This document shows positions 3,645 through 29,353 of a stretch of 29,353 nucleotides of DNA, in pieces; the stretch's first letter is position 1, and every line of letters starts with the position of its first letter. The stretch spans positions 1 to 29,353 of the forward strand of contig CAYTOW010000001.1 of the NCBI GenBank assembly GCA_964439655.1. Reading direction: 5' to 3'. The DNA comes from an uncultured Mycoplasmataceae bacterium (GTDB lineage: Bacteria > Bacillota_I > Bacilli_A > Mycoplasmatales > Metamycoplasmataceae). The notes under the pieces were generated by a model. It was given only the letters and a program-made list of their open reading frames with translations, searched no databases and was not told the origin of the DNA. The position numbers and the translations under genes are program-made.

Positions 3645-3668
3645 GCACTAGCACTTGCTAGTGTTTTT
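3645..3668 (+). terminator. Rho-independent terminator
   Basis: GCACTAGCA-CT-TGCTAGTGT followed by TTTTATTTTT, downstream of the stop at 3599. Confidence 0.85.
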
Positions 3669-4467: not shown

Positions 4468-4493
4468 TGTAAAAGTAGAAAAGAGGACTTAAT

Positions 4494-5279: not shown

Positions 5280-5300
5280 TTTTTCTTTATAATTTAAAGT

Positions 5301-5450
5301 ATGGCAAAGAGAAAAGTAAAAATAAAAAAAGAGAAAAAACCACTTGCTCCAGGACAAATTAAGATAATGGTATATATCGGTATTATTATTTTGATTTTAG
5401 TTGTAATTGGTTTAACTATTTCAGGTCTTAATTGAGCTGCAAAACAATAA
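5301..5450 (+). CDS. Small single-pass membrane protein, 49 aa (absent from ORF track)
   Basis: MAKRKVKIKKEKKPLAPGQIKIMVYIGIIILILVVIGLTISGLNWAAKQ*: basic N-terminus plus one TM helix; TATAAT at 5288-5293, 7 nt before the ATG. Confidence 0.7.
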
Positions 5451-5465
5451 TATATAAACTTAACT

Positions 5466-5627
5466 TTGAGGGAGTAGTCCTAACCTTTATAGAGAGTCAA
5501 GGATAGTGGAAGCTTGATAAGGTAAAGCTACAAGTTGCAAAGCTAGTTCCATATGGCGCTTAACAGCGATACAGTTAGAGAAGTCCTTCGAGGGTGGTAC
5601 GTTGACCCCTCGAGAGGGACTTTTTTT
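5466..5627 (+). promoter_or_regulatory. T-box riboswitch (Val) with terminator upstream of valS
   Basis: GGGAGTAG, AGAGAG bulge, stem TCAAG/CTTGA with GTGGAAG loop, Val codon candidates GTA (5522-5524) and GAA-GTC (5583-5585), T-box-like AGGGTGGTACG (5591-5601), GC hairpin plus T7 (5621-5627), directly before an aminoacyl-tRNA synthetase gene. Confidence 0.8.
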
Positions 5628-5643
5628 ATATAAAGGAGAAAAA

Positions 5644-8076
5644 ATGGAAAAGAAATTTAATCACAAAATAGTTGAAAAAGATAAGAATAAAAAATGAATA
5701 GAGAAAAAATATTTTTCTTCTCATGGCAAAGGGAAGCCTTTTACTATATTGCTTCCTCCACCTAATGTAACTGGAAAACTACATGCTGGACATGCTTGGG
5801 ATGGATATCTTCAAGATAGCATAATAAGATATAAAAAACTAAAAGGTTATGATGTTATGTATATTCCTGGAATGGATCATGCAGGTATTGCAACACAAGC
5901 TAAAGTAGAATCACTCCTTAAAGAAAAAGGTTTATCTAAGCACGAGATGTCTCGTGAAGAATTTATAAAACATGTTTGGTCTTGAAAAGATGAGTATGCC
6001 TCAATCATTAGAAAACAATGAGGAATTATGGGCCTTGCATTAGATTATGATTCTGAAAGATTTACTTTAGACAAAATTTCAAACGATGAAGTTAATAGAG
6101 TTTTTATTAACTTATATAATCAAGGATTAATCTATAGAGCTGAAAGAGCAATTAATTGAGATCCAAAACTACAAACAACTCTTTCAAACATAGAAGTTAT
6201 AAATAAAGAAACAAAATCTAAAATGTATTATTTTGCTTATCCTCTTCGTAATGGAGGAAAAATTTCTATTGCAACTACACGTCCTGAAACTATGTTTTCA
6301 GATGTTGCTATTGCTATTAATCCCGGAGATAAAAAAAACAAAGATTTAATTGGTAAAGTTGCTATCTCTCCACTAACAAATAAAGAGCTCCCAATTATAG
6401 CCTCAGAATTAATTGAGATAGGAAAAGGAACTGGAGCCATGAAAGTTTCTGCTCATGCTGAGATGGACATCGATATTATTAAAGAAAATAATTTAGAGAT
6501 TATCGAGTGCATCGATAAAAAAGGAAAGATGAATTCTTTAGCAGGAAAACTTGAAGGCATGGATAGATTCAAGGCACGCAGGGAAGTAATTAAGCAATTA
6601 AAAGATGCTTTAATAAAAGAAGAAGATATTCTTAATTCAATTGGCTATTCAGAAAGATCAAATGAAGTTATTGAAACTTTAGTTTCTCTGCAATGATTTA
6701 TAAAAATGGATGGCTTTGCTAAAAAGATAAAAAAGGATTTATCTAGTGATGGCATTAAATTCTTCCCACAACGTTTTGAAGAAACGTTAAAAACATGAAT
6801 GACTAATACTAAGGATTGAGCAATATCAAGACAACTATGATGAGGGCATCAAATTCCAATTTGATATAAAAATGATGAAATTAAAGCACAAGTAGATTCT
6901 CCTGGTAAAGATTGAGTTAGAGATAGTGATGTTCTCGATACATGATTTTCTTCGGGTATAGCTCCTTTCTCATTTTTAAAAGGAAATAAATATAGTAAAG
7001 GAAGATATCCTTCAGATGTTTTAGTAACGGGATACGACATTATATTTTTCTGAGTTGCACGTATGTACTTATTTGGACTTAATGAGAAAAATAAAAAACC
7101 ATTTAACGATGCATTGATACACGGATTAATTAGAGATGAACAAGGACGCAAAATGTCTAAATCACTAGGCAATGGGATTGATCCTATCGAAGTTATCGAT
7201 AAATATGGCTCAGATGCCTTTAGATGATTTTTACTTACAAACTCTTCACCTGGTCAAGATATTAGATATTCAACAGAAAAAATAGAGGCTGCTTGAAAGC
7301 TTGAAAATAAACTTTGGAATATTGCTAGATACATTCAAGATATGCCTGAGGGAGAGCAAACATCGATTGATAGTTGGGCAAAACATCAAGTAAATAAGTT
7401 ATCAAAATCCTTAGACAAATCAATGGATAAATATGAATTCTCAATAGTTGGTCAAGAACTGCAAAGTTTTATCATGGATACTTTTTCTTCTTCATATATC
7501 GAAGGCTCAAAAATAAGACCATCAAGAAAAAATGCAATAGAGATTTTTGCTAACTTTTTAATTCTTCTACATCCCTTTATGCCTTTTTTAACAGATCATC
7601 TATATAAAGCATTAACTTCAAAAGAATTACTTGAATCTAAAATGACTTTAAACAATTCTCTAGAAGTAAAAGAAATTGATAATTCATTTAAAGTAGTAAA
7701 AGCAATTAGAGCCTTTAAAGAAGAAAAAGGAATATCACCAAAAGAGAATATTAATTATTTTATTGGCATTAACATCGATAAAGACCTTATAGAGTTTATG
7801 ACAAAATCTAAATTCAAAAAAAATAACGATCTACCAATCTCAATCGATAAGGAAATTTTATATATCGAATTATCTGATAAACTAAAAGCTTCAGAAATGG
7901 AAGAAGTAAAAAAAGAAATAACTTATCTTGAATCCGAATTATTAAGATCTAATAAATTAATAAGCAATAAATCTTTTGTTGCAAAAGCACCTAAGTCATT
8001 AGTTGAAAAAGAAAAAGAAAAAATAAAATCATTCGAAAAGCAACTAGTAGAACTAAAGAAAAAACTAAAAAATTAG
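5644..8076 (+). CDS. valS: Valine--tRNA ligase, 810 aa
   Basis: RBS AAGGAG; [14 protein letters not shown] (HIGH-like), [49 protein letters not shown]-terminal coiled arm (NKSFVAKAP); continuous in frame 1 under code 4. Confidence 0.97.
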
Positions 8077-8145
8077 ATAAGAATAAATAAAATATTTATT
8101 TACAATTTAATATCAATATTTTTTATTTAATTTATAATTAATATT

Positions 8146-9528
8146 ATGAAAAAAGTTTCGAGTAAAATATCGCCAGTATTTAGGCATCCGCTTAAATATA
8201 TTAAAAAGCAATTAAAATCAAAACCAATTCTTAAGAAAGCTTTATATACGCTTTTACTTCTTTTAATATTTAGAATTGCAGCAACTATCACTATGCCTGG
8301 AGTTCAATCTATTGGTGATTCATTTAAAAATCAAAATTCATTTATCAATGTTATGGACATGATGGGTGGAGGAGCCCTTAGAAGATTCTCAATTGTTGCC
8401 TTAGGAATTTCACCTTACATTACAGCCTCAATTATTATGCAAATGCTTCAAACAGAGGCATTTCCACCAATATATCGATTAGCAACTTCTGGACCAGTTG
8501 GGAAAAGAAAACTTAATATTGCCACAAGAATACTAACAATTGCTTTTGCTTTTATTCAAGCTATTACAATCGTTCAATCACTTAATGGTGGAGGTTTAAC
8601 GTTAATTTCTTCACTTAATCATGGTTGATTTAAATATTTTGTACTGCCAACTATACTTTTAGCTGGATCACTTTTTACTTTATTCTTAGGTGAGCAAATT
8701 ACAGCTAATGGTGTAGGTAATGGCACTTCATTAATTATTTTCTCAGGTATAGCAGTAACTATTCCAACTAAATTTGAAAATGCTTGACTAGAATTTATAA
8801 GCGGAGGAAATAGCACATTTAGTGGAATAATGTGAATGTCTTTATACCTTCTAGTTTTCTTTGGACTTATATGATTAATAGGATATTTATATATCGCTGA
8901 ACGACAGATACCTATTCAACAAACAGGTTCTGGTCTAAATACTAATAAATCACAAATGTCTCGTCTGCCTATTAAACTTAATCCGGCAGGAGTTATGCCA
9001 GTAATTTTTGCATTAATTCTTGCATCGATACCAACTATGGTTTCTCAATTCCTACAAGCACGTAGTCAAGAAAGAGCATGAATTAATGAGCATCTATCGT
9101 TAACTTCTTGAATTGGCTTATTAATATTTATCGTATTAGTATTTATATTTACTTCTCTTATGACGATCGTTACGTTTAATCCTACACGAGTTGCAGAGAA
9201 CTTCAAAAAGAACTCAACATTTATTCCTGGTATACGTCCTGGTATGCAAACTGAAAATTATTTAACATCGGTTGTTCTAAGACTTTCAGTATTTTCTTCA
9301 ATTTATTTATCTGCAATTTCATCGATACAATATATTGCAAGGTCTTGAATAAAATTAAATAGAGGAATTATGTTTAGTGGAACCTCTCTTATAATTTTGG
9401 TTACAGTTGCAATTGAGACTATAAACCAAATGAAGGCAAGATATAAAACAGTTGATTTATCTAGAAAAAAAGAAAACGCAAATAAATCATTATCTTCAGA
9501 TGAATCTACAGAAGGGTTATTATGATAA
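8146..9528 (+). CDS. secY: Preprotein translocase subunit SecY, 460 aa
   Basis: FSIVALGISPYITASIIMQML, GEQITANGVGNGTSLIIFSGI, LPIKLNPAGVMPVIFA, IPGIRPG, GTSLIILV; ends ...EGLLW* (TGA then TAA 9526-9528). Confidence 0.96.
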
Positions 9529-10076
9529 AAAACTTTATATTTTTAGGAGCACCTGGAGTAGGCAAAGGAACAATTGCTTCGTTAGTTTCTGGAGAAAAAG
9601 GATTAGTTCATATCTCAACTGGAGAAATTTTTAGAAAAGAGATAAGAGAACAAACTGATCTTGGAAAGCAAGTTACATCGATACTTGACTCTGGTAAATA
9701 TGTACCTGATAACATTACTAATGCTATCGTTAAGAAAGCAATAGAAACTAAGGAAGCTAAAACTAAAGGATTTATTTTAGACGGATATCCTCGAACTATC
9801 GTTCAAGCAGATTTTCTAAATTCTTTAGGCATTAATGCAACCGCTGTCTTATTAGATGCTTCTGATGAAACTATTCTTTCAAGACTTAGTGGAAGAAATA
9901 GTGGAAGGGCTGATGACAGTCCTGAGGTTATAAAAACTAGATTAAAAGTTTATAACGAAAATACTGCTCCACTTATCAATTACTATAAAGAAAAAAAATT
10001 ACTTGTAACAATTAATGTTGAAGGCACAATTGAAAGTAACTTTAAAAAAGTAAAGGAAAAATTATTTAATGATTAA
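9522..10076 (+). CDS. adk: Adenylate kinase, short (LID-less) type, 184 aa
   Basis: GAPGVGKGT P-loop, HISTGEIFR, GFILDGYPR, RADD, RLKVY; overlaps the secY stop. Confidence 0.95.
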   Translation: MIKNFIFLGAPGVGKGTIASLVSGEKGLVHISTGEIFRKEIREQTDLGKQVTSILDSGKYVPDNITNAIVKKAIETKEAKTKGFILDGYPRTIVQADFLNSLGINATAVLLDASDETILSRLSGRNSGRADDSPEVIKTRLKVYNENTAPLINYYKEKKLLVTINVEGTIESNFKKVKEKLFND

Positions 10077-10818
10077 TATAAAAACTAAAGCTGAACAAGA
10101 TCTAATGCGAGAATCTGGAAAAAAACTTGCTGAAGTTAAGCAGATACTATGAGATATTATTAAACCAGGAATTACTACTAAAGAAATTAACGATATTGCT
10201 TATAAAGAAATTACTGCGCGTAATTGCACACCTTCATTTCTTGGTTATGGTGGTTTTCCAGCAACTGCCTGCATTTCAGTTAACGATGAGTTAATACACG
10301 GAATCCCAAATGACTATGTTCTAAAAGAAGGGGATGTAGTATCGATAGATTTAGGACTAATATGAAAAGGATGACACTCAGATTCAGCCTTTACTAAAGG
10401 TGTAGGGAAAATATCTGAAGATGATAAAAAATTAATTGATGTAGCTAAAAAGGCATTTGAGGCAGGTATTAAAGCAATAAAACCAGGTGCAAGACTTGGT
10501 GATGTTGAGGCAGCAATAGGTGATTATATAACTTCACAGGGAATGTACACTCCTAGAAACTTTGCTGGTCATGGCATTGGCAAGGAACTTCACGAAGAAC
10601 CAACAGTTAATAACTTTGGCATTAAGGGCACTGGACCTGAATTAGTAGATGGAATGGTTATTGCAATTGAGCCAATGATATTACAAAATTCATCAGAAAC
10701 GATAACATTAGACGATAATTGAACTATAATTTCAATAGATGGTTCAAAGACTTCTCATTATGAGCATACAGTCTTAATTAAAAATGGGAAACCAGAATTA
10801 TTGACAGGAGGTATTTAA
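10069..10818 (+). CDS. map: Type I methionine aminopeptidase, 249 aa
   Basis: [17 protein letters not shown] start, [36 protein letters not shown]; TAA 10816-10818. Confidence 0.96.
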
Positions 10819-11030
10819 TGGCTAAAGACGCAATCAAGATGACTGGGATAGTAACTAAAGCTCATTCTACAACAGAGTATGCAGTAGAACTTGAGAATGG
10901 TGTAACTATTAGAGGCATAGTATCTGGGAAAATAAGAGTTTATCACATTAGAATTCTTCCAGGAGATAAAGTTGATGTTGAGATTTCACCTTATGATCTT
11001 ACTAAAGGTAGAATCACATATAGACATTAG
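10818..11030 (+). CDS. infA: Translation initiation factor IF-1, 70 aa
   Basis: [34 protein letters not shown]; TAATG coupling to map. Confidence 0.96.
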
Positions 11031-11037
11031 TTGATTT

Positions 11038-11064
11038 AAAAAAGCGCATATGCGCTTTTATTTT
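11038..11064. terminator. Bidirectional terminator between convergent infA and rpsT
   Basis: Palindrome AAAAGCGC-ATAT-GCGCTTTT flanked by A/T tracts. Confidence 0.8.
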
Positions 11065-11324
11065 GTTTTTGTTCTTGATAAGTAGGCATCAAGTCTTGAT
11101 GATTTTCTAGCACCATTATTTTTATGGTAAACACCTTTAGAAACAGCTTTGTTAATTTCAGAGTGTGCAAGTGAAATTTTTTTAGTTAATTCTTTATCTT
11201 TATTATCAATTGCTATTTTTGCATTTTTAATAGCAAGTCTAACTCTAGATTTAATAGCTTTATTTCTTGATGTAGCCTTTGCAATTCTTTTAATATTTTT
11301 TTCTTTTGATTTTATATTTGCCAT
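11058..11324 (-). CDS. rpsT: 30S ribosomal protein S20, 88 aa
   Basis: MANIKSKEKNI...RNKAIKSRVR...KAVSKGVYHKNNGARKSSRL; AAGGAG RBS on the minus strand. Confidence 0.96.
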   Translation of the reverse strand: MANIKSKEKNIKRIAKATSRNKAIKSRVRLAIKNAKIAIDNKDKELTKKISLAHSEINKAVSKGVYHKNNGARKSSRLDAYLSRTKTK

Positions 11325-11502
11325 TTTGACTCCTTTTAACTATGAAAGAATTATACAAAATAATTTAACAACATCAAATTAAAATACATTTCTATTTTTC
11401 TCTCACATTATTAGTATTAATGAAAAATATTGATATAGTTAGTAAAATTTTTCTCATTAATTTATTTGATAAGTATATTTATATTAAAGTTATAATTTGA
11501 AT

Positions 11503-12183
11503 ATGACTAGCTACATTATTGGAACTTCATTTGGATCATTAGCACTTTTGATAGCGCTTATTATCATTATTCGTATTTTTTTCAAAAGAAGAACTAAACA
11601 AAAGTTAATACTTGAAATTGGAGCTAGAGCAGAAGTAAAGGTTAATTCCGATATTAAAATATGAACTAAGCAAACTAAAAATATATTTATAGACTCATCG
11701 ATATACAAATACGATCACGATATGCTTTTCAAAGTAGACTCAATAATAATAACTTCAAAAGCAATGATAGTTGTTGAAGTAAAATCTTTAAATGGTTCTA
11801 TATCTGGAGATTGTAATGCCCATACATGGAAGAAAACTTTAAATAACAATACTTTTAGAATAATAAATGCTCAGAGCCAAAATCAAGAGCACATCGATCA
11901 CATCATTAAAATGTTAAATATCAAGGTTCCGATAATTTCTCTTATCGTTTTTTCTAATAGAACTTATGAATTAAATATTGATAATATACCTAGTCATGCA
12001 TTAATTATTCGCCATGTGGAGTTATTTGAGACATTAGACAAGATCGATAGTTCCCTTCCTTTTTCTATTCATGAAAAAGAGATGAAGTACATTAAGAATC
12101 AATTGCTAAGCAAACAAACTAAATCATGAGATGATATTAAGAAATATGAATCTTTAGCACAAATTGAAAAAGGAAGTAAATAA
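11503..12183 (+). CDS. NERD (nuclease-related domain) protein with N-terminal TM anchor, 226 aa
   Basis: MTSYIIGTSFGSLALLIALIIIIRIFFKRR anchor; GARAE..V, VDSIII, VVEVKSLNGSISG, NAQSQNQEH motifs; TAA 12181-12183. Confidence 0.8.
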
Positions 12184-13010
12184 TGAAAATAATTTTAGCT
12201 GGTTCTCCCGAAATTGCTGTAGAAACTTTTGAAAAAATAATTAAAAACTTTGATGTAGTGGCTATCATTACACAACCTGATAGACCAAAGGGTAGGGGTA
12301 ATGTTATTCAAGAAACACCAGTTGCTTCTCTAGGCAAAAAACACGGGATTAAGACCTTTAAACCTCAAAAGGTTATTGAGATAGAAAAGGAATTAAAAGA
12401 ATTAGACTTTGATTTACTTTTAACTTTTGCCTTTGGTCAATGAATTCCTGATTCAATCCTCTCTCTTGGAACTAGAACACCCTTAAACATCCATGGTTCA
12501 TTACTTCCTAACTATCGAGGAGCTGCTCCAATACAAAGAGCTATCTTAGATGGACAAGAGGAAATAGGAATTACACTTATAAGTATGGTTAAAGAAATGG
12601 ATGCAGGCGACATCTGAGCTAAAGCTTCAAAGAAAATTGCTAACGATGTCACATCTAAGAAGGCATTTGAAATTATTTCTAAACTTACTGAAGAGAATAT
12701 TATTAATTGATTAAATGAATTAGATTTAATGACTCCTAAATCTCAGGGAGATAATTTTACATTAGCCCCAAAAATAATTAAGGCTGAAGGAGAGCTTTTT
12801 GAAACATTAACTAAAGAAGAAGCATACCGAATAATTCTCGCTTATAATTCTAATCCAGGTGCTTTTAAAATCATTAATAATAAAAGATTAAAAGTATTTA
12901 ATGCTTTAGACGAGAAAGTAAAAAATTCAATTGAATTAAAATTTAAAAATGGTAGTTTATTTGCAATCGATTTCCAATGAGAAGGAAAGAAAAGAAAGAA
13001 GATTTCATAA
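12183..13010 (+). CDS. fmt: Methionyl-tRNA formyltransferase, 275 aa
   Basis: [38 protein letters not shown]; TAA 13008-13010. Confidence 0.95.
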
Positions 13011-13211: not shown

Positions 13212-14315
13212 ATGAGCCTAGAAACTGAAAAGAAAGAAATTTCAAAAACCAAAAGTAGCATTTCTACAAGAGTAGATGTTTTAAATAAACGAAATGAGAT
13301 TTATGAGTTTATTTCTAAGGCAAGACAAAGGTTAAGAAAATTCCTAGTTAAAAAAATAGATCATAGTAATTGAGACCTTAAATCTACTGTTGTTGAAGAG
13401 TTATATAAGATCTTTAGGAAAGAGTCAAAAAAGGTTTTAAAGAACTTAAATTTTTGTCAAGAAAAAATTACTATTAAAAGAGATGATTTTATAAAAGTCT
13501 CTAAGGATTTTATTAAAAACTTTAAAGCTAATAAAGAAGGTGACTTACAAATAAAATTAAATAACATTAAAATTGAACAAGAAAAAGAAGTAAATAAACT
13601 ACTTGATAAATTTGATGAATTAACTAATGAAAAAAACGAATTATTAAAGAAAAAAGATTTACATGGAAAGGCTGTTAAATCTAAATCTCATGACACTCAA
13701 AAGCAATTACAATCTGAAGAGAGTTTAAGTATAGACTATGCGACTCAACAAATTAAAGTTTTAATTAATGAGCATGATAAATTTGTTGAAGAGGATATTA
13801 TTCCAAAAGTTGAGCAATTAACTAAAGATGCTGAAAAAATTAGAAAAGAGATTAAAGATATTGAATCTAAAGCTTTAGAAGATACATATAAAATTTCTGA
13901 AGAAAATAAAAATACCTTAATTAGAGAATTTACTAAAATTGCAAATATGGAAAAAGAAGTTATTATAAAATGTTTAACCTTTAATGACTTTTTAGAAGAT
14001 ACTCGTTACTTTATCGAAGATCAAAATAAAAAATATGTTCTTTTATTAAAATCTAAGAAAATTATCAAAAACAATGCTGCAAATGATATGCGGAAAGATA
14101 TTAATGCATTATATTCTTCAATTGCAGATTCAGAAAAGGAATTTGATAAGGTTAACCTTTCATTTGCGAAAACAAGTAACCGTATTGATAATAAAAACCT
14201 TAGTAGTAAATTGCTTGATAATGTTCGAACTAATGCGATTACAGCCTCTGATAATTCTGCAAAATTATTAGAAGGTTCTTTAGGTGCCTTAGAAGCTAAG
14301 AATGGAGAGGAGTAG
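13212..14315 (+). CDS. Hypothetical cytoplasmic coiled-coil protein, 367 aa
   Basis: RBS AGGAGG at 13201; open frame 3 under code 4; K/E-rich heptad-like sequence; no TM or signal segment seen. Confidence 0.85.
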
Positions 14316-16023: not shown

Positions 16024-16131
16024 TAAAATAATATTATTAAAAGTAAAAAAGTAAAATAGGTATCTTTATAAAATAAATTATGTACTTATTTTAGATGAAT
16101 GAAAATTCATTTGCAAAACCTAGGAGAAAAG

Positions 16132-18408
16132 ATGAGGATAAGAAGTTCGAAAAAAAACGAAGAAAATGCAATAGATATACGAGTAAAAGATTCTACACTT
16201 AAATGGTGAAAACAAACTATTGAAGTATCAGATCTTTTTATAGCGAATAATCTATATAGATGACACATTGAAGAGATTGTATCTCAGGATATTTCTGATT
16301 ATCCTGGTGTTGATAATAGACTTGTTGTTTCTTATTTTGATACTGATGCAGATAAGTTTAAAACTGCAACAGTTACATTTCAATGAGAAAATTCTAAAAT
16401 GGATTCTATTACAGCTTTTACTTCCGCACATAACTTTGAAATAAATAAAGAAATATTTAAATCTCTAAATTTTGCAAACATTAAAAATACTGATGTAACT
16501 TCTAATCATCCAAACGTTCATGTTAAGTCTGTTTCAATAAAAGATTGAAAATTATTTAATAGAACTGTTCTGATTTCTATAATAAGTGTAATTGGTAAAT
16601 CTCTTAAAGATCCAAATGGTTTTGAAACTGAAACTTTTAAAACTATCACTATTGGTTTAGATCAACATGAATTAATAGCTGCTACACTTGAATTAAAAAA
16701 GGAAGAGTCCTTTTTATATTTAAATGATGACCTAGAATTTTATGTTAAACAATTTACTCCTGTCTTAAACGAATATAAGAAGTTTTTTAGGGAAAGTGAA
16801 ATTCAGAAGCTTTTCAAAATAATTAATTCTGTTGAAGTTATTAACCCAAAAATTATGAGTGAAGAAATTGATATCTTCAATAAGAAAGCTACTGCAGGCT
16901 TTAAAGCAAGTATTCTTATTGGTAATGTTGTTAAAAATAATTTTGTTTTTGAATCATACTATGATGCAACCAATTTTAAAAACATCATTATTAAATACAT
17001 TAATGAATTTCCACTTATAGATAAAATTAAAGGTTTTCCAAGAAACGATATTAAGATTAATGATATTTTTAGTCAATGGGATGAAATTAACTTAAACTTA
17101 TGATCAAGTAGAAAAGAAATTAAAGAAATATTTATTAATAATGTAAAAGTTAGAGTTAAGAATATTGATATAAATGCAAATACGATTAATCTTGATGTTG
17201 TCTTTAAAAATGGTGAAGTGATTTTCCAAAATCTTACTTTTACTTTTGAAAAAAGTATCGATGATTATTTAGACGATTCTATAAATCAACATTTAGTTAA
17301 ATTAGTTAATGAAGAAGATTTATTAAAATATCCTAGATATGATTTAGAAATTAGTGATTTTCAAACTGTAGATGATTCTAAATTTAAAATTTTAAATGTT
17401 AAAGTAGAAGGTTATGAAAACAATAAAAATGATTATGTAAATTATAAATTCAATTTTCTATATGATGGCTCTACCGAATTTACTAAAGTATGTAGGATTC
17501 AATTTGCTGAATCTAAGATTTCATATTATTTTAATAAATTAAGTAAAAACTTTATTGATGTTACATTTTTAGAAAAAGTTAATGTTCAATATTATGAACA
17601 CCTAATTAAAAATGCAACCTTTAATGCAAAATGAATATCAATAGATAGTTCTGATTTAGATAAGATTATTTTAACAAAAACTTTTAACGATGAATTTGAA
17701 GTTAAATCTGTTCAGTTTAAAAGAGTTCAATTATCTACTGCAAAAGAAGTTCCTTTTAAAATAACTGCATATTGTGAACATCTAGATAGAGAAATGTTAT
17801 TTAATTTTTCAATTGAAATTAACAATAAAGAAGAATTGAGAAGGTTTAATGAACTAAGTAGTGATGATATTACTTTCGTTAATCCAGCAATAATACATTC
17901 ATATCCTATTCCAATTTTAGATGTCATCGACTTTAAGGTAGATCTTCCATTCAGTATTACTGATGTCTTTGTAAAATATAATGAAAAAATATCTCTTGTA
18001 AAATGTGAATTTGAAATTTCGTATAATGGACTTAAAAAATACCTTAAAAAAGAAATATATTTTGCTAACAATCATCTTAAGAAAGAAGGAAACGAGTTTA
18101 AAAAAGATTTATCAGAATTTAAACGACTTGCCGATAAAGATATTGATATTAAGTATGATCCTGATGCACATGATTATCATGTTCAACAAAAGGTTAATAT
18201 TATCATCCCTAATCATGACTCCTACTTTGTAAATCTTGAAGATTGAAAATTATTACATAAGAAAAATAAAGTTAAATTATACATTGCAGTAATTTTTGGT
18301 GATAAAAAGAGAGAATTCACTAAAATTATTAAGTATAATAATAAATTATCTAGAGATGATATTTTAGAGTGAAAGGAGGCAAATTATGAACCACGTAAAG
18401 GACTATAA
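16132..18408 (+). CDS. Hypothetical beta-strand-rich cytoplasmic protein, 758 aa (alternative start 16099)
   Basis: AGGAG 5 nt before ATG 16132; track ORFs 16855, 17218 and 17794 join in frame 1 through TGA; TAA 18406-18408 overlaps the next gene by 23 nt. Confidence 0.8.
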
Positions 18409-19792
18409 ACAAGATATACATTTTGAAAATAGACTACCCAATAGAGTAAATTCTACTTTAAGTATTAAGAATAGAATTAAGCAAGCTGCTGTTTCATTTG
18501 GAATCTTTATTACTGTTTTGCTTTTTGGCGCATTAATTGGAATCAAATATAACTCCAAACTTCAAGACACTGGTATATCAACTCTTGAAGTTACAATTAT
18601 ATCTTGAAGTTTATTACTCTATGGATTACTAAATACTTTCCTATATTTTAGAACTCCAATAAAGTTTGAAATAACTTGATTACGATTCACGATCCATGTA
18701 TTATCATCAATAATTTTTTCCGCAACAATAATATTGCTTAAACTTAATATTTTTGGTGATATCTTTAATTCAAAATCTAATCCCGAAACTGCTGCTACTG
18801 CTATTAAACTTTATGCTATTATTAACTCATCATTTTCAGCTGTTATATTAATTTACTTGTTAGTAATTGCTATTTTACAAAGAAGACAATATGCTTTACA
18901 ACTTAAAACAACTATTTTAGGAGGGGTATCATTAGCTATTCTGATTGCTGCTCCATTTATGATTCAAAAGTTTTCTAGTAGCTTTAAAATTATCAATGAA
19001 TATATATTTATGACCTCAATATTAATATCGATAGGAGCATTCATATTAGTAATGTCATTATTTGGGATAGTTAAATCATTTGAATCAGCAAAACTAAAAA
19101 ATGTAAATAAATTCCTTGGTACCTCTGTCACAATTACTGGTATTGCTTCAATCCTTGGAGTTGCTATATATAGTATTGCTAATGTAGGAATTGAATTAAA
19201 ACTTCTAACTGCAACCTCATTAATTTTGTCTCTATCCTCATTTGCAATAGTTAATCTATATTTAGTAATTTTTAAGAAATTTAAAAATTCAAATATAAGT
19301 AAATTTAAAAGTTCTGCTATAAAACAAAACTCATTAGAGAATAAATTAATTATTAAAGGATACATAATATTTAATCTTATATTCGCAATAGTATTAATAT
19401 TCTTAGTTAGTAAAACTGAAATTCATAAAACCTATGAGTATTCAGTAATGATTGCCACCTTTCCAATAATACTTATCGGAGTAACACTTCTAATTCTTCA
19501 ATTAAATAATATAATTGTATTTGTTAGATGAGAAATAATTTCGATAGTAGCCAATTTCTTATTAGCATTTCTATTTATATTAATGCAAGGTCTAATGTTT
19601 ACTATTCCCGATAAAGAAATAACACAAAATTGATTAGGTAGAGGAATTTGATTCTTAATTCTTAGTGTATATTTAGTTACAGAATTAGTTACATTATCAA
19701 TTGAAACGGCATCGTTATTTATAGGAAATAGTTCAAAAGGAAGTTTTAAAGATAAGATTAAAAATACAGTAAAAAATAAAGGAAAAAGATAG
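18386..19792 (+). CDS. F1-like ATPase cluster protein 1 (MSC_0624/MMOB1610-like) polytopic membrane protein, 468 aa
   Basis: RBS AAGGAGG; about 12 hydrophobic segments counted by eye; first position of the seven-gene cluster; TAG 19790-19792. Confidence 0.7.
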
Positions 19793-19801
19793 GAGAAAAT
19801 T

Positions 19802-21364
19802 ATGAAATTAAAAAAAGAGAAGAAAGCAAAAAAAGCAAAAAATAACTTTAGTGAAGAAAATACATTATTAGATGAAAATTCTTTCCAAGAAGAAGAGAAA
19901 ATGGAAACAGAAAATAAGGATAATAAAAAACCTAAAAAATCTAAAAAACCTAAGAAGTCTAAAAAACCTAAAAAAAAGAAGAATAAAAAGAATTTAAAAT
20001 CTACTAAAGATTCAATAATTGAAGCAGAAGAAAATTTAGAAGATAATGAAAATGAAGAAAACAACTCTAAAAAAGGTAAAAAGTCTAAAAAAGGTAAGAA
20101 GTCTAAAAAAGGTAAAAACCTTAAAAAAATAATATTAAAAGATAAAAATCCACAAAGAAAAGATGATCAAGGCAATTTACTTGTAAACTCTCAATTAGAT
20201 TTTGACATCGATGATTTATCAGTTTTTGCTGAAGAAGCTAGAAAGTTACAAACTAAAAAACGTGATGTTTTTATAAGAAATCACAATAATATTTTCAATA
20301 CTTTTATTTCTAGAAGAGAATATGTTGATTATAAATATATTTCACTTCAAATTTATTTAATTCAAAATAGTGGAAGTAAATATGAGTTTATAGGAATCGA
20401 AAAAACTGTAATAAGTATTATTGAATTTATTGAAAGAAATCTACGGAATGGTGTATCGATTGCCTTTGGTAGAGAATTTATAATTCAACTTAAAAATAAT
20501 CAGCAGTTAGAAACTCAAGGCATTATTGAATTAGATCAAAATTCTCAAATTAATAGAGAGAATACTTACACTATTAAAGATGTTAAGATTAATCTTTCTG
20601 GAATTAGAGAGTATGCACTGTATGAGTTTGTTATTTCTAATTTTGAACAAGTGGTTATTGATTTATTAAGTTATGGATATAAAGTTTTATTAGGTAACTT
20701 CATGCTTACATATATTGAAGATAGTTACTTTGTATTTGCTTCTGAAAAAATATACAGAATTCAAGAAGAACAAAGACACGATATTACAATGACATTTGAT
20801 ATTGCTATTGAGAATGCTAAAGAAGTTGAGGATTTTGCAAATGATTCTATAATTAATCAAGAGTTAAAAGAAATGGAAGATTCTTCAAATAACGAACAAT
20901 ATAAAACTCAAATTATTAATAAGGATGATCTTGAAGATAATAAGTTCAAGAGAAATAGTATATTCACTGTACCCGATGTTGATGAAATTAGACCAACTAA
21001 TAATGAACCAAAATCCGAGTTAAATGAAAAACAACCAGTTAAAGATAATAATAAATTAAGCAAAAAAGAACTTAAGGCTAAAAAAGCAGAGGAAAAAGCT
21101 AAAAAAGCAGCAGAAAAAGAAATGGCTAAGAAAGCTAAAAAAGATAAAAAATCAAAAGAAATCAATAATAAGAATTCAGTTAATAAAAAAGAGGAAGCAA
21201 AAGCTAAAAAAGCAGAAGCAAAAGCTAAAAAAGCAGAGGCTATTGCTGCAGCTAAAGCAAAAGAGGAAGAAGCAATTGCAGAAGCTCTTGCTAAAAAAGC
21301 TGAGGCAAAGGCTAAAAAAGCGGAAGCAAAAGCTAATAAAAAAGCAAAATTAAAGGGGAAATAA
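19802..21364 (+). CDS. F1-like ATPase cluster protein 2 (DUF2714/MSC_0623/MMOB1620-like core) with long Lys-rich N- and Lys/Ala-rich C-terminal tails, 520 aa
   Basis: Gene position 2; globular core at ~20280-20780 (REYVDYKYISLQIYL...IAFGREFII...FEQVVIDLLSYGYKVLLGNFML) recalls DUF2714; flanks are low complexity. Confidence 0.55.
   Translation: MKLKKEKKAKKAKNNFSEENTLLDENSFQEEEKMETENKDNKKPKKSKKPKKSKKPKKKKNKKNLKSTKDSIIEAEENLEDNENEENNSKKGKKSKKGKKSKKGKNLKKIILKDKNPQRKDDQGNLLVNSQLDFDIDDLSVFAEEARKLQTKKRDVFIRNHNNIFNTFISRREYVDYKYISLQIYLIQNSGSKYEFIGIEKTVISIIEFIERNLRNGVSIAFGREFIIQLKNNQQLETQGIIELDQNSQINRENTYTIKDVKINLSGIREYALYEFVISNFEQVVIDLLSYGYKVLLGNFMLTYIEDSYFVFASEKIYRIQEEQRHDITMTFDIAIENAKEVEDFANDSIINQELKEMEDSSNNEQYKTQIINKDDLEDNKFKRNSIFTVPDVDEIRPTNNEPKSELNEKQPVKDNNKLSKKELKAKKAEEKAKKAAEKEMAKKAKKDKKSKEINNKNSVNKKEEAKAKKAEAKAKKAEAIAAAKAKEEEAIAEALAKKAEAKAKKAEAKANKKAKLKGK
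19925..20119 (+). repeat. Two 3 x 18-nt intragenic tandem repeats (KKPKKS and SKKGKK)
   Basis: AAAAAACCTAARAARTCT units at 19925-19978; TCTAAAAAAGGTAARAAS units at 20066-20119. Confidence 0.85.
21197..21340 (+). repeat. AKAKKAE heptapeptide (21-nt) repeats
   Basis: GCAAAAGCTAAAAAAGCAGAR at 21197 and 21218; similar units again around 21284-21335. Confidence 0.8.
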
Positions 21365-21472: not shown

Positions 21473-22516
21473 ATGGCTAGTAAATTAGAAGATAGAAAAA
21501 AAATAATGAATGATTTACACAAGGTTGTTAATTTAAAGATTTTTAAATCAATCCAAAAAATTAATCAATATGAAAGTGATGTAAAAACAATTATTCAAAA
21601 TATCGAAAATATTAAAAGCATTAAAAACTTTTTAGCGAAAAAATCTTCTTTTTTCGATGTTTATTATAAGCAAGTTAAGAATCCTAAAAAATTAATGATT
21701 TTTATGCAATCAGTTGATGATTCTAATATCGATGTATATTCCGATAAAAAAGTTGAAGAGTATATTGCTAAAAATACAGATGAGAATGTTAAATCTTGAA
21801 TAATAGGTCCAAGACTATTTGATCATCTACTTAATTCTAAGATTATTACTGATGAACAAAAAGCGACTATTTCCTTCTTTGGAGACTACAATATCGATGA
21901 AAAAACTAAAGTAATTAATTTTTCAAAAATATTAAATGAGGTTGCAGATTACTCATTACTTGCTTTTGATAATAAAGATTTTACTCAAATAGATATTTAT
22001 TATAGTGATATTAAGGAATCAGGAAATATTAAAAGTACACGAGTACTTCCAATGATAGATGATTCTAAAAAGAGAAATAAAAAAGGATCAAGAATTAATC
22101 GTAAAGACAAAGAAGATTCTGATGATGATATAAAAACTAAAAAGTCTGATATCTATATTATCTATTCAGCATTATTAAAATCTATTCGAAGAAAATTCTC
22201 GAATTTAAAATTCTATTCAGAGATAGAAGAGATAAATAGTGCTATTTTAAAATTTGCAATTTCCTCTAATATAAAATATACAATTATTGGTTTTTTATTA
22301 AATGTAGAAATTAGAAAACTATTTTCATTACAAGAAGAAGTCAAAAAACTAGATGAGAACATTGAGGAAATCAATGCCCTTATAAAAGCCTTCCGTCAAG
22401 AAAAAATTACTCGTGAAATGTTGATGATTGCTGCTGCCAAATTTGCTAAAGATAAAAGAATGGAAGAATTGATCAAATTGGAGCTTGAAGCGAAAGGTGT
22501 TAATTATGCAAAATAA
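21473..22516 (+). CDS. F1-like ATPase gamma-like subunit (MSC_0622/MMOB1630-like), 347 aa
   Basis: Helical N-terminus MASKLEDRKKIMNDLHKVVNL; C-terminal RQEKITREML (22394) matches the gamma RQxxITxE motif; joined across TGA 21797-21799. Confidence 0.8.
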
Positions 22517-23108
22517 AAAAGTTATATTTAACGCAAATACTAGTTCAATAGATTCCAAAGTAGAAACTAAATTTAATATTTCAGCAATAAAGAACATAAC
22601 TATTGCTTCTTTTATTGATAAAAAAATGGTACTAAAATTTGAAAATTTTGAAAAACGGGCAAAGGCTAATAACTTTATTTTTCAAAGAGAAGCAACATGA
22701 ATAAGAATTATGTTTAAGAATAACATTTTTAGAGATTTTGTTGCAACACAAGTAATTGGAATAGGATCAAAAGAAGGTGTAGTTTTTGAAGTTGCAGGAA
22801 TATTTAAAGAGATTTCTATCAAGTTTGCAGTTAATGAAATTTTAAAGTTCGCTCTAGAAAATAACTATAAAGCTGCAACTGCAGATTTATTCTTTAAATA
22901 TCAAAGTAATATTGGAACTATAACTAAAAATGATTTTAAATTCCTAACAACAAAAAAAGTTGATCTAACTATGGATCCAATAGTTTATACCAATAAACGC
23001 CAAGAAGTTTTTCAGGAAATGCTAATGCTATCAGCTATAAAAAATGTTATAAAAACTTCTAGAAAGATGCTTTCTATAAAAATTAACGAGGAATTAAAAT
23101 ATGCATAA
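22506..23108 (+). CDS. F1-like ATPase cluster protein 4 (epsilon-like, MSC_0621/MMOB1640-like), 200 aa
   Basis: Overlaps the gamma stop and the next start; beta-rich N-half and helical C-half; assigned mainly by position. Confidence 0.55.
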
Positions 23109-26100
23109 AAATAAAAATAGATTGAAGAAAATAGTTATAGGCTCATTAGTAGGTACAACTACTGCTATTTTTGCTTCTGCAACTATTGTTCAATCTATTA
23201 ATCAACACGATAAAAATTCACTTAATTTAAATCTCACTAAGGATATAGATGAATTATTTTCTCCTGCTCCCCCAACTCCTCAGGTCTCTCTTGAGTTTCC
23301 TAAGACTATAAAATATCTATTAAAAACTTTTAGTGATGCCTTTATACCTGAAGATCCACAAACTATTACTGATCTTTCCGATCTAGCTGTATTCATGATA
23401 AAAGATCTTCATATCGATATTAGTGGAACAGATCTTAGTGAATATGGTAAAGCTATTTATGGTCTTCACGAATGATATGTTAAAGAGAACTTTGGTCTAG
23501 GTGGATCTGGTGCACCTGCTAATTTCCCGGCCGAACTAAAAACCAAACTATTAAGTGATGAATTTGTAACTTCTCAATTTAAAGAAATAAATGGAATTCC
23601 AGAAGTTGACCTTGATTCCCTTAAAAGAAGAGCATTAACTCTTACATTCCCAACTTCATTCGGTACTTTAATAAGTGAAAACTTAGCTTCTCATCCAAAT
23701 ACACCACAAATAAATCCTTCTCGCTTTGAACACAAAGTAGCTGTTGTTAATGCGCCAAATGTTCCTAGTGATAATGGTTCAGTTGAATTCACTTATCAAT
23801 TTGGTAATAATGGGGATACATATTCAATATTTCTAAATAATGAAAATGATGATCTTAAGAATAAAGATAAAAGCATAGATGATTTAATTTCTAGTGGTGC
23901 AATTATTATTAGAAATAACGATAAATTTGATCCAGATAATCCTCAAACAGTTAAGGATTTTAATGAGCATTTAACAATAACAAGAGATTTAGAAGGTAAG
24001 ATTAATTTCTATGTTGACCTACCATCAATTACTGATGTAGCAAAGTTTGGTGTTAATACATTTGCAAGTACTTGAAAAGATTCTATTACTGTTGGATTTT
24101 TAGATTCTACTATCAATCCTTCTCATATCGATGCTAATGAAAATTCAATTATTTCCTCAAATGAAGTAAAGGGAATACACTTAGTCTCTCATACAGCAAG
24201 TAGTTATTGAAAAACTGATAAGAATGGACATATAGGACAAACATTAACAACAACTCATACTTTAAAATTCTATGCAAGACCTGGAGAAAAATTTAAGTTT
24301 GAAGTATCTTATAATGGTTCAGAAAATATTTCTTCTGATGGAACAACAGATGGTTCAGGGCCGCCACCTGAAATCAATTTTAAAGTTAATGATGATGGTA
24401 CTGTAGATGTAGACAAAACATCGATAAGAATTCCATCTTCAATAATAAAACAATGAAAGGATCAAAATATTGACATTAAGGATTTTGAAATTAATACTCG
24501 TACAAAAACTGATAACAATGGAAATATATGAGCAGAAATCGTAATTGTAACTGATGACCATATCGGTATTGGTGCATTATTAAGTACAACAACACCAGGA
24601 AATATTAAGAGAGATGTTTTCAGATTAAATGATTATGGTTTAGATTCGCATCCTGTAGTATTTGAAAAACCAGTACAATTTGATGGGGATATAAATAAAC
24701 ATCCTGTTACATTTGAAAAAGTTGTTAATGCTGAAAGTGAGATTCCTAAACTTTTAGGAGATATGTATCTTGTTGCTACTGGTCATGCGCCTCAAAATCC
24801 CTTAAGCCATATGGATCAATATCAAGTAGATCCTTTTGACTCAAACCCTTATGTAGTTCCTACATTTACAAGTGGAAAATTAAATACTATATTAACTGAG
24901 ACTCTTCATCTTACAGCAGACGATAGACCAACAAATACTAAATTAATTGATACTAATTTTGGTTACTTGATAGAAAAATTAAATGAGTATGGTAATAAAT
25001 TAAACGATGTTATAAAAGAAGTTACTGGTGAGTATTTATTTAAAGAGGTGCCAAAAGATCATTTTATTACTGCTGAAGATAAAGAACCTGCAACTTTTTT
25101 AAAGAGACTATACATAGATAATAAGATAGCAAACAATAAAATTATTCATGAACTTCAAGTTGGTTTCGATGTTTATGAAAATGGGCCTGAAAATCTATCT
25201 AATAAAAATGAATCAATAGAAGGAATAGACATTATTCAAAAAGGAGATAGAGATTCCTTAGCTGAATTTGCATTTCCAAGACTAGTTGAAATAGTTAAGG
25301 CTAAACTATATGATCTAGAAAAACAATTTAATAATAAAATTTTAGATTATAAATTTACTACAATAATTTCTTCTCTATATACTTCAAATGCTAAGGTATA
25401 TAAAGCTCTAAATTCAAAAATTATTCAAACTCGTGAAATGTTAATTGGTTCAGAAAAACGTCAAATGCAAATATACATACCTAATAATGGTACTAATGGT
25501 CTTGAAGATGTTACTACTTTCAAAGAGCAAATTAAATCACTTATTATTGGTCTTAAAGGAAGCATTCATTTATCACATAGTGGATTTTCAGATTCAGAGG
25601 TTGCTGACTTTAATACGAATATAGACATAATAATAGCTAATCCTCCTGAGAGAGTTAATTATAAAGATATAGTTGTTCGTATGTATGATTTATTATTCAA
25701 ACTTATTGACACATTTTCAAGTCATGAAGAAAATGGTTTAGCTAGCATATTAAATATACAACGACATATTGATAAAGATAAAATTACTGAGTTTGTTATC
25801 AATGAAATTAACAATGGGATCTCAAAAATTAATTCTTCTAAAGAGAGAGTTATTTCTGCAGGGGGATTTGAAGTTGTAACTAACGATGGTTATATTCAAG
25901 TTGCTAATAATAATCTTCATCAAATATTTAGATCCTTTATTCTTAAAGATGGATTAACAAAAGAAGAAAAATCTAAGATACAAGAATTTATCGATAAAGA
26001 TTATGCAATCCATAGAAATGTTATTGCTGAATTATCTATTAAGAGTAGAAATTACGACATTCAAGATTTTATTCAAAGATTGACAGGAAAAGATATAATT

Positions 26101-26415
26101 GGAGTGGCAAACGAAATTCTAGAACTTGATCCATTAAATATGCTTTCTTCAGAATTGCCGGATGCATCTAAGTTTAGAGATGTTATTAAGACAATTAGTG
26201 AGAACTCAAAAGTAGTCTTTGGTGTCATTGCTGGCCTTGTTATGTTAATTGGATTATTGCTAACCCTTGCTGGATTTGCTAAGTTTAAAGGAAAAACAAG
26301 AGGAAAAGGAATTATAACTGCTGCAGGTATTTCAGTAATTGCAGTTGGGATTGCATTAGTTATAATAATAATTATATTCCCACCAACTGGAGCATTGTCA
26401 TTATTGGCATTATAA
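23101..26415 (+). CDS. F1-like ATPase cluster protein 5 (MSC_0620/MMOB1650-like) large membrane protein, 1104 aa
   Basis: Single frame-1 ORF under code 4; N-terminal basic + hydrophobic anchor (KKIVIGSLVGTTTAIFASATIV); two C-terminal TM helices separated by KFKGKTRGK; directly upstream of alpha. Confidence 0.75.

Positions 26416-26438: not shown

Positions 26439-29353
<2,915 letters not shown>

What the first reader, a model, noticed from the sequence alone, without database searches (positions are those of the whole stretch)
19802..21364. Cluster protein 2 carries long polybasic tails (KKPKKS, SKKGKK, AKAKKAE repeats)
Seen: a globular core of ~170 aa between a ~110-aa Lys/acidic block N-terminus with two triplicated 18-nt units and a ~100-aa Lys/Ala/Glu C-terminus like histone-H1/TolA-type helices. 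Established: the position-2 protein of such clusters is normally compact, and the M. mobile counterpart is a motor scaffold component. Inference: the tails could tether the motor to anionic membrane, nucleoid DNA or a polar condensate, or replace the missing beta extension as an inter-motor linker. The tandem units are also candidates for length variation.
Basis: partly seen in the sequence, partly recalled or inferred. Interest (0 to 1): 0.65.

Follow-up and report, generated by a model that had tools for sequence, protein, structure and literature searches.

The report
Divergent GliD-like motor subunit with polybasic tails
This gene encodes a very distant relative of GliD, the bridging subunit of the Mycoplasma mobile gliding-motor ATPase; it has a lysine-rich tail at each end, the C-terminal tail being usual in its own small clade and the N-terminal block a recent repeat-driven addition of untested function.

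Summary
ORF 19802-21364 (+, table 4) encodes 520 aa:
- an N tail (1-118) of alternating basic and acidic blocks with two 18-nt x2.9 tandem arrays;
- a core (119-345);
- an acidic linker;
- a K/A/E C tail (418-520).

The core has no Pfam or NCBIfam match and no direct HMMER hit to MMOB1620/GliD. It is still a remote GliD homologue, on these grounds:
- five syntenic relatives exist;
- two of them bridge to GliD (E 4.7e-11 and 7.2e-8);
- a profile built without any GliD finds only the GliD genes in M. mobile and an M. pulmonis-type genome;
- the AF2 model's six best PDB matches are all GliD chains of 9IO5.

DUF2714 is a wrong lead: neither GliD nor this protein matches it.

The cluster belongs to a six-member sister clade of classic Type 2 ATPases, and all six have a beta without the N-terminal domain. 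All six carry low-complexity C tails of 80-306 aa on the GliD homologue, five of them net basic. Classic GliDs are 267-323 aa. The C tail is therefore a clade trait. Only the roughly 100-aa N-terminal block is unique to this protein.

Function is inferred, not shown; an electrostatic membrane tether or spacer is the reading I favour. Repeat-number variation could not be tested.

The parts
19791..19795 (+). Shine-Dalgarno AGGAG, 6 nt before the ATG; it overlaps the TAG stop (19790-19792) of the upstream 468-aa gene
   Evidence: read directly from the sequence; ORF list
19802..21364 (+). Whole ORF of 520 aa (P0001): GliD/MMOB1620-like position-2 subunit of an F1-like ATPase cluster
19802..20155 (+). 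N-terminal tail (residues 1-118): a block polyampholyte (+7/-8/+17/-8/+14), K 36%, GC 21%. About 100 aa of it is an insertion relative to all five relatives.
19924..19975 (+). 18-nt tandem array x2.9 encoding KKPKKS x3; the copies differ only by AAA/AAG changes and the last codon
   Evidence: TRF score 90; sequence
20066..20118 (+). 18-nt tandem array x2.9 encoding SKKGKK x3, 94% matches
   Evidence: TRF score 99; sequence
20156..20836 (+). Core (residues 119-345): a helical lead-in plus an alpha/beta globular domain homologous to the GliD globular domain. Q183 (Q78 of the core segment) is the only invariant column and G217 (G112 of the core segment) the only nearly invariant column in the alignment of 12 sequences.
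20837..21052 (+). Acidic, Asn-rich linker (residues 346-417, net -7), probably disordered
   Evidence: not alignable among the relatives
21053..21361 (+). C-terminal tail (residues 418-520): K/A/E heptad-like AKAKKAE units with well-mixed charge, no Pro, GC 31.7%. A helix-forming polybasic tail with 21-nt repeat units at 21077-21119, 21184-21237 and 21290-21341.
   Evidence: weak TolA-like match, E 0.0027, below the cut-off
21473..22516 (+). Context: gamma-like subunit gene immediately downstream
   Evidence: PF00231 E 1.6e-6; homologues in all related clusters
26439..28028 (+). Context: alpha-like subunit of the MMOB1660 family, expected to be the binding partner of the core. Its C-terminal domain is the part most diverged from M. 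mobile (21-24% identity, against 52% in the nucleotide-binding domain).
   Evidence: NF045863 at 631 bits, cut-off 600; tree; identity by region
28028..29353 (+). Context: beta-like subunit without the N-terminal domain of M. mobile Gli-beta (P-loop at residue 177); cut off by the contig end

Best explanation
P0001 is the GliD-type (MMOB1620-type) accessory subunit of an F1-like ATPase that belongs to a previously undescribed sister clade of the mycoplasma Type 2 (gliding-motor) ATPases.

Core. By homology with PDB 9IO5, I infer that its central alpha/beta domain docks on the C-terminal domain of the alpha-like subunit.

Tails. The two tails are non-globular additions of different kinds.
- The C-terminal part (acidic linker plus a K/A/E segment that favours helix) is this protein's version of a clade-wide low-complexity C-terminal extension that is mostly basic.
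- The N-terminal block of about 100 aa, made of alternating poly-Lys and acidic segments, is a lineage-specific insertion. It grew by replication slippage of 18-nt units.

Most likely role (inferred, about 35-40%). The tails act as electrostatic tethers or spacers. They would hold the cytoplasmic F1-like head near the anionic inner face of the membrane, or near neighbouring complexes, in a motor whose beta subunit lacks the N-terminal bridging domain.

Shown: the homology, the architecture, the clade distribution and the repeat structure. Inferred: binding to alpha, disorder or helicity of the tails, and any tethering.
For: Homology with GliD:
- An exhaustive HMMER search found only three relatives (E 1e-21, 9e-18, 3e-9), all in syntenic clusters. 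Two more were found in genomes G023 and G015.
- The GliD profile hits those two at 4.7e-11 and 7.2e-8, and L042 at 6.7e-4.
- A profile of the six clade members alone finds only the GliD genes in G001 (1.4e-6) and in M. mobile G002 (7.1e-5), out of 398 genomes of the order.
- hhalign gives a co-linear match, E 5e-4.
- The AF2 model has pLDDT 65 and pTM 0.66. Its six best PDB matches are GliD chains of 9IO5, E 1.6e-7 to 2.9e-4; the next best is 0.017.
- The alpha tree places the clade (support 95/91) as sister to classic Type 2 (100/100).

Tails:
- C tails after the core measure 182, 106, 135, 306, 80 and 255 aa, with net charge +13, +13, +21, -8, +7 and +27. Classic GliDs total 267-323 aa.
- The N lead is 145 aa here against 40-71 aa in the relatives.
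- The 18-nt triplications are nearly perfect.
- The C tail is 28% Ala in a genome with 6% Ala and 30% GC, so AT bias alone does not explain it.

Membrane-tether reading:
- The other lysine-rich tails in this genome sit on three ABC-transporter ATPases, FtsY and the Type-3-like beta. These are cytoplasmic parts of membrane machines.
- The remaining ones sit on ribosomal proteins S6, L21, L23 and L3, on trigger factor and on GrpE.
- All six clade betas lack the N-terminal domain.
Against: - There is no direct pairwise or profile hit between P0001 and classic GliD.
- The hhalign probability is only 32%.
- The AF2 alignment was half GliD sequences, so the match in fold is not independent of the proposed homology.
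- The C tails of the relatives do not align with one another, and one of them (P0004) is net acidic with a DUF2188 domain at its end.
- Lysine-rich tails are common in this AT-rich proteome, including on proteins that do not touch the membrane. They could be tolerated drift.
- No experiment or read-level data bear on membrane, DNA or protein binding.
Confidence: 0.6

Rival explanations
1. The tails are selectively near-neutral low-complexity expansions. AT-biased mutation plus replication slippage would have produced them in a reduced genome, and they would have no specific role in the motor.
For: - The genome is 30% GC with 10.4% Lys, and at least ten other proteins carry lysine-rich tails, including ribosomal proteins, GrpE and trigger factor.
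- The N block is absent from all five relatives.
- It contains near-identical 18-nt triplications, which points to recent slippage.
- The C tails are not conserved in sequence across the clade.
Against: - All six clade members keep a C-terminal extension of 80 aa or more, and five of the six are net basic.
- The window's C tail is Ala-rich (GCT/GCA codons, GC 31.7%) against the mutational bias, has no Pro and has evenly mixed charge.
- The N tail is much more charge-segregated than chance: 0 of 5000 shuffles reach its value.
Confidence: 0.3
2. The tails replace the missing N-terminal domain of beta as protein-protein linkers. They would join neighbouring F1-like units into dimers or chains, for example through contacts between basic and acidic blocks in trans.
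For: - In M. mobile, GliD and the beta N-terminal region are what connect the F1 units, and about 100 unmodelled GliD residues lie at the inter-motor interface.
- All six short-beta clusters have a tailed GliD homologue, whereas long-beta clusters have a compact GliD.
- The N tail is a blocky polyampholyte, a type prone to self-association.
Against: - The anticorrelation rests on one split between two clades, so it is a single evolutionary event.
- Tail length does not track anything else within the clade.
- The blocky N tail is present in only one of the six members.
- There are no structural data.
Confidence: 0.15
3. The tails bind nucleic acid in the manner of the C-terminal tails of histone H1, HupB or AlgP. 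They would couple the ATPase to the nucleoid or to RNA.
For: - K/A-rich heptads here and KPAP-type repeats in P0004 resemble known DNA-binding tails (my own knowledge; sequences).
- Similar K/A/T/P tails sit on ribosomal proteins in the same genome.
Against:
- Its M. mobile homologue sits in a membrane-proximal chain.
- No DNA-binding domain was detected.
- DUF2188 has no established function.
Confidence: 0.1
4. The core is not a GliD homologue at all but an unrelated protein that took over position 2 of the cluster.
For: - There is no direct HMMER hit and no Pfam or NCBIfam family.
- Identity to GliD in the alignment is 14-16%.
- The hhalign probability is 32%.
Against: - The chain of intermediate hits, the genome-wide profile hits that fall only on GliD genes, the co-linear alignment, the identical gene neighbourhood and the Foldseek top six.
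Confidence: 0.08

Closest known systems
GliD (MMOB1620; G1-ATPase subunit D, PDB 9IO5) of Mycoplasma mobile and its orthologues
   Same: - Same position in the cluster, between the gene corresponding to MMOB1610 (a 12-TM protein in M. mobile) and the gamma-like gene.
- A co-linear globular domain with the conserved LQ motif and Gly.
- The predicted fold matches the GliD chains best.
- The alpha and beta partners belong to the MMOB1660 and MMOB1670 lineage.
   Different: - 520 aa against 267-323 aa.
- No direct sequence hit.
- The helical lead-in is shorter (an alignment gap of about 24 columns in the region before the globular domain, where GliD has its long N-terminal helix).
- It adds an N-terminal charge-block region of about 100 aa and a C-terminal extension of about 180 aa.
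- The partner beta lacks the N-terminal domain that, in M. mobile, binds PGK and bridges the two F1 units.
Position-2 proteins of the short-beta sister clade (P0002, P0003, P0004, P0005 from G023, P0006 from G015)
   Same: - True orthologues: 25-31% identity over the full-length alignment for the three nearest, 13-29% over the core for all five.
- Identical synteny from the ~750-aa gene through to beta.
- All have a low-complexity C-terminal extension, mostly basic.
   Different: - None has the N-terminal block of about 100 aa or the 18-nt arrays.
- Their C tails differ in composition: K/N/S-rich, R/K/S-rich, or E/P/K-rich with a DUF2188 domain, not K/A/E heptads.
TolA domain II and single-alpha-helix K/A/E segments
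   Same: The C tail resembles them in composition and heptad-like periodicity. There is a weak match to TIGR02794: residues 405-516 against profile positions 92-202, E 0.0027.
   Different: The score of 17 bits is far below the 59.45 cut-off. There is no TolA N-terminal anchor or C-terminal domain. This is a resemblance in composition, not membership.

Membership tests
GliD / MMOB1620 family (G1-ATPase subunit D) | Encoded at position 2 of an F1-like ATPase cluster whose alpha and beta belong to the Type 2 lineage | tested here: met
   Gene order. The alpha scores 631 bits against the NF045863 cut-off of 600. The alpha tree puts the clade as sister to classic Type 2.
GliD / MMOB1620 family (G1-ATPase subunit D) | Direct sequence similarity to MMOB1620 orthologues | tested here: not met
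   phmmer, and an HMM of eight GliD orthologues, give no hit to P0001 (best domain E 0.35 or worse).
GliD / MMOB1620 family (G1-ATPase subunit D) | Remote homology through intermediates or profiles | tested here: met
   The GliD HMM hits P0005 at 4.7e-11, P0006 at 7.2e-8 and L042 at 6.7e-4. The clade-only profile hits only the GliD genes in G001 and G002. hhalign gives E 5e-4 at 32% probability.
GliD / MMOB1620 family (G1-ATPase subunit D) | Fold of the GliD globular domain | tested here: met
   The six best Foldseek PDB matches are 9IO5 chains R to W, with target-normalised TM 0.52-0.70. Caveat: the model's pLDDT is 65 and half of its alignment was GliD sequences.
GliD / MMOB1620 family (G1-ATPase subunit D) | Long N-terminal helix H2 that pairs in the GliD dimer | tested here: inconclusive
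   The model has helices at core residues 31-46 and 49-65, with pLDDT about 43-76. The alignment has a gap of about 24 columns in the region before the globular domain.
GliD / MMOB1620 family (G1-ATPase subunit D) | Binds the C-terminal helices H20-H25 of the alpha-like subunit and bridges two F1 units | not testable with these tools
   No multimer prediction or experiment was available. The alpha C-terminal domain is only 21-24% identical to M. mobile.
Classic Type 2 (gliding-motor) ATPase cluster | Beta subunit with an N-terminal domain of 200-290 aa | tested here: not met
   The P-loop lies at residue 177 here, against 358-452 in the classic clusters. The match to NF045858 starts at profile position 224.
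DUF2714 (PF10896) | Match to the Pfam model | tested here: not met
   No match for P0001, its core, M. mobile GliD or any relative. No DUF2714 was found anywhere in G000. In M. mobile it lies at about 371 kb, not at the GliD locus.
TolA (TIGR02794) | Score over the curated cut-off | tested here: not met
   17 bits against 59.45, on the C tail only.

The most novel reading that the evidence does not exclude
In a sister lineage of the mycoplasma gliding-motor ATPase that lacks the N-terminal bridging domain of beta, the GliD-like subunit has taken over the organising role through long charged tails. A helical polybasic C tail would pin the F1-like head to the anionic membrane. In this vent-associated organism, a block-polyampholyte N tail would link neighbouring motors, or concentrate them into an array by multivalent electrostatic contacts. 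Its length would be tunable through 18-nt slippage.
Probability: 0.15. Interest if true: 0.65.

Novelty: new variant of a known kind. Interest (0 to 1): 0.45.

Why it matters
The papers read here report Type 2 F1-like ATPases in only four species and treat GliD as a compact bridging subunit. This locus shows a second, rare lineage: six clusters, and about seven position-2 sequences among 15 billion proteins. In it beta is short and the GliD homologue carries long charged tails.

That gives a natural comparison for asking which parts of the twin-motor architecture are essential, how such motors are held at the membrane, and whether the lineage drives motility at all.

The tails alone are a modest finding, because lysine-rich tails are frequent in this proteome.

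Tried and rejected
- Word-indexed protein search with the core: no hits.
- Core protein against 41 related genomes: only itself, plus one chance hit at E 0.033.
- Direct phmmer and GliD-HMM searches against P0001: negative.
- Pfam and NCBIfam on the core and on all relatives: no family; DUF2714 rejected.
- AF2 with only four sequences: unusable, pLDDT 36.5.
With the four-sequence alignment, the metagenome scan confirmed no relatives.
- PDB sequence searches with each tail: nothing.
- Exact look-up of P0001 in the 15-billion-protein collection: absent, so no length variants could be compared.
- The position-2 protein of the genome's second F1-like cluster (P0096): no relation to GliD or P0001, hhalign probability 0.7%.
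- Literature on DUF2188: no established function.
- The minus-strand ORF 19432-20298 that overlaps the N tail was dismissed as the complement of a lysine-rich (AAA-rich) coding stretch.
Full report
**The observation**

Under table 4 the window holds a co-oriented run of genes:

| Coordinates | Product |
|---|---|
| 16099-18408 | 769 aa |
| 18386-19792 | 468 aa |
| 19802-21364 | 520 aa (P0001) |
| 21473-22516 | gamma-like, PF00231 E 1.6e-6 |
| 22413-23108 | about 200-230 aa |
| 23101-26415 | 1104 aa |
| 26439-28028 | alpha-like |
| 28028-29353 | beta-like, cut by the contig end |

The window is the whole contig C1 of a draft genome of 678 kb in 86 contigs, 87% complete and 30% GC. P0001 starts 6 nt after an AGGAG that overlaps the stop codon of the upstream gene.

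- Residues 1-118 are alternating basic and acidic blocks (+7, -8, +17, -8, +14) and carry two 18-nt x2.9 arrays, encoding KKPKKS and SKKGKK.
- Residues 119-345 form a normal-composition core.
- Residues 346-417 form an acidic, Asn-rich linker.
- Residues 418-520 form a K/A/E tail built of 21-nt units.

The tails are coding sequence, not open frame by accident. None of 20,000 shuffles of the N-tail DNA stays open, and the other two frames carry 7 and 21 stops.

The two tails differ physically:
- The N tail is a strongly segregated block polyampholyte. Its kappa is about 0.42 against 0.17 +/- 0.04 for shuffles, and it contains Pro, Gly and Ser.
- The C tail has evenly mixed charge (kappa 0.13), no Pro and 28% Ala, so it favours helix.

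Within the genome the protein ranks 2nd of 563 ORFs for lysine density. The gene holds 3 of the 23 tandem-repeat loci.

**What the core is**

Pfam and NCBIfam give nothing for the core. The only library hit anywhere in the protein is a sub-threshold TolA-like match on the C tail.

The alpha-like subunit passes the curated cut-off of the MMOB1660 family (631 bits against 600). The beta-like subunit matches the MMOB1670 model only from profile position 224 onward.

I fetched the eight classic Type 2 clusters found among 298 genomes of the order. G002 is M. mobile: its position-2 protein is identical to PDB 9IO5 chain R, 'G1-ATPase subunit D', which is GliD/MMOB1620. The classic position-2 proteins are 269-319 aa and 41-51% identical to M. 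mobile GliD. Neither phmmer nor their HMM detects P0001. Of the window's cluster, only alpha, beta and, weakly, gamma hit the classic clusters.

An exhaustive HMMER search of 1.84 billion representative proteins found just three relatives of the core: 332, 363 and 528 aa, with E 1e-21, 9e-18 and 3e-9. Each lies in a cluster with the same gene order as the window, on two roughly 1.1-Mb contigs flagged circular by their names and one 30-kb metagenome contig. A profile search of the family's genomes added two more, G023 (323 aa) and G015 (505 aa), again at position 2 of syntenic clusters.

These two bridge the gap to GliD:
- The GliD HMM hits them at 4.7e-11 and 7.2e-8.
- The G023 protein hits both GliDs (down to 1.8e-9) and the window-type proteins (8e-5 and 1e-3).
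- A profile built only from the six clade members, searched against 398 whole genomes of the order, hit nothing except the window's own gene and the GliD genes of G001 (1.4e-6) and M. mobile (7.1e-5).
- hhalign between the two groups is co-linear but weak: E 5e-4, probability 32%.
- The 12-sequence alignment is co-linear across the whole domain.

With that alignment AF2 gave a usable model (pLDDT 65, pTM 0.66, core blocks 76-95). Its six best PDB matches are the six GliD chains of 9IO5 (E 1.6e-7 to 2.9e-4, target-normalised TM up to 0.70), and the next match is at 0.017. Half of the alignment was GliD sequences, so the model is supporting evidence rather than independent evidence.

I conclude, at about 85-90%, that the core is a remote GliD homologue. 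DUF2714 is a wrong lead. It matches neither protein, and in M. mobile it sits at a different locus.

**The clade**

In a maximum-likelihood tree of alpha subunits, the six window-type clusters form a clade (95/91) that is sister to the classic Type 2 clade (100/100). The pair (91/96) is separate from the Type 1 alphas. All six betas have the P-loop at residue 157-177, as in an ordinary F1 beta, against 358-452 in the classic Type 2 betas. The whole clade therefore lacks the N-terminal domain which, in M. mobile, recruits PGK and bridges the two F1 units.

The C-terminal domain of alpha is where GliD docks in M. mobile. It is the region most diverged between the window and M. mobile (21-24% identity against 52% in the nucleotide-binding domain). 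Within the classic clade its last part is 74% conserved between M. mobile and the M. pulmonis-type genome. This fits co-divergence of the two partners.

**The tails in comparison**

84 full-length classic GliDs measure 267-323 aa (median 310). In the sister clade, the segment after the core is 182 aa in the window protein and 106, 135, 306, 80 and 255 aa in the others. Net charges are +13, +13, +21, -8, +7 and +27. The exception (P0004) has an acidic, Pro-rich stretch followed by a KPAP-type basic stretch and a DUF2188 domain.

These tails do not align with one another. A C-terminal low-complexity extension, mostly basic, is therefore a clade trait, while its sequence is free to vary.

The N lead is 40-71 aa in the five relatives and 145 aa here. 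The alignment places about 100 aa of the window protein as a single insertion just after the shared short basic N-terminus. Its two 18-nt arrays differ only by AAA/AAG changes and their last codons. This points to recent slippage.

**Background in the genome**

Lysine-rich tails are not rare in this proteome. They occur on:
- three ABC-transporter ATPases, one with an even denser KKEKIKKPK array;
- FtsY;
- the beta of a second, Type-3-like F1 cluster on contig C3;
- the position-2 protein of that second cluster;
- ribosomal proteins S6, L21, L23 and L3;
- trigger factor;
- GrpE.

This cuts both ways. It shows a proteome-wide tendency, which supports the neutral-expansion rival. It also shows that such tails sit mostly on proteins that face a polyanion, either the membrane or the ribosome.

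The Ala richness of the C tail runs against the AT bias: GC is 31.7% there, against 21% in the N tail.

**Mechanism**

Shown:
- GliD homology and the domain layout.
- The distribution of the tails across the clade.
- The repeat structure.

Established from the literature:
- GliD binds the alpha C-terminal helices.
- GliD dimers bridge F1 units.
- About 100 GliD residues are unmodelled and lie at the inter-motor interface (Toyonaga et al.).
- Type 2 clusters pair the F1-like head with membrane proteins.

Inferred:
- The core docks on alpha.
- The tails act as electrostatic tethers or spacers. I favour the anionic membrane as the target (about 35-40%), then neutral drift (30%), an inter-motor linker (15%) and nucleic acid (10%).

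**What could not be done**

The stretch is held in hydrothermal-vent metagenome runs: X1 holds 96% of its sampled words, and X2-X4 hold 49%, 39% and 14%. The exact protein is not in the 15-billion-protein collection.

**Verdict**

The assignment to MMOB1620 is right, though only remotely so. DUF2714 is wrong. The C tail is usual for the true orthologues and the N block is unique. Function remains open. The wider result is a short-beta sister clade of Type 2 ATPases that the papers read here do not mention, with tailed GliD homologues. I rate it a new variant of a known kind and of moderate interest.

Noticed in passing
G000:C3 (L052) 2280-12419, minus strand: A second F1-like ATPase cluster lies in the same genome and is Type-3-like: the beta scores 544 bits on MSC_0618 (cut-off 570) and the alpha 436 bits on MSC_0619. 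Its beta ends in a polybasic tail. Its position-2 protein (P0096, 422 aa) has a charged N-terminal region of about 250 aa with a poly-K run. It shows no DUF2714 match and no relation to GliD.
   Followed up: partly
G000 contigs C9:12258-13622, C9:6407-7639, C22:6475-7371, C46:1339-2490, C4:16764-17702, C11:12337-12957, C20:7650-8393, C11:10809-11702: Long lysine-rich low-complexity tails sit on three ABC-transporter ATPases, FtsY and ribosomal proteins S6, L23, L21 and L3. One ABC ATPase has 58 Lys in 100 aa, from KKEKIKKPK tandem repeats.
   Followed up: partly
L035, L036, L037, L039, L040 (genus g7 classic Type 2 clusters): These clusters run beta, alpha, 197 aa, gamma, GliD, ~440 aa, with no MMOB1650-like gene of about 1100 aa between the epsilon-like gene and alpha. 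M. mobile, the M. pulmonis-type genomes and the window's clade all have one there.
   Followed up: no
L041 1-4204, L042 1-4185, L047 550-7116: A giant ORF (over 2100-2250 aa, no Pfam hit on record for the L041 and L042 products; the L047 ORF was not scanned) lies upstream of the cluster: directly upstream of homologues of the window's 13212-14315 and 14318-15673 genes in L041 and L042, and directly upstream of the cluster's first gene in L047. It could be a surface or cytoskeletal partner. The window has no such gene in that position.
   Followed up: no
L043 7552-9138 (P0004 residues 433-466): One orthologue ends in a DUF2188 domain (E 1.3e-4, 22.5 bits, at the cut-off) after an acidic E/P/K region and a KPAP-type basic region. 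This is a different solution for the C-terminal extension.
   Followed up: partly
L041 19014-19691, L042 19128-19799, L043 17653-18381: A conserved gene of 223-242 aa follows beta in the three metagenome clusters. The window's contig ends inside beta, so its presence here is unknown.
   Followed up: no
window 26439-28028: The C-terminal domain of alpha (residues 351-529) is only 21-24% identical to M. mobile Gli-alpha, against 52% in the nucleotide-binding domain. The last 60 residues are 74% conserved between M. mobile and the M. pulmonis-type genome.
   Followed up: partly
whole window: The runs that hold this stretch are labelled hydrothermal vent metagenome (X1 holds 96% of its sampled words, and three more runs of the same study hold part). 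The genome sits in the same GTDB family as M. mobile but alone in its genus among the genomes searched.
   Followed up: no
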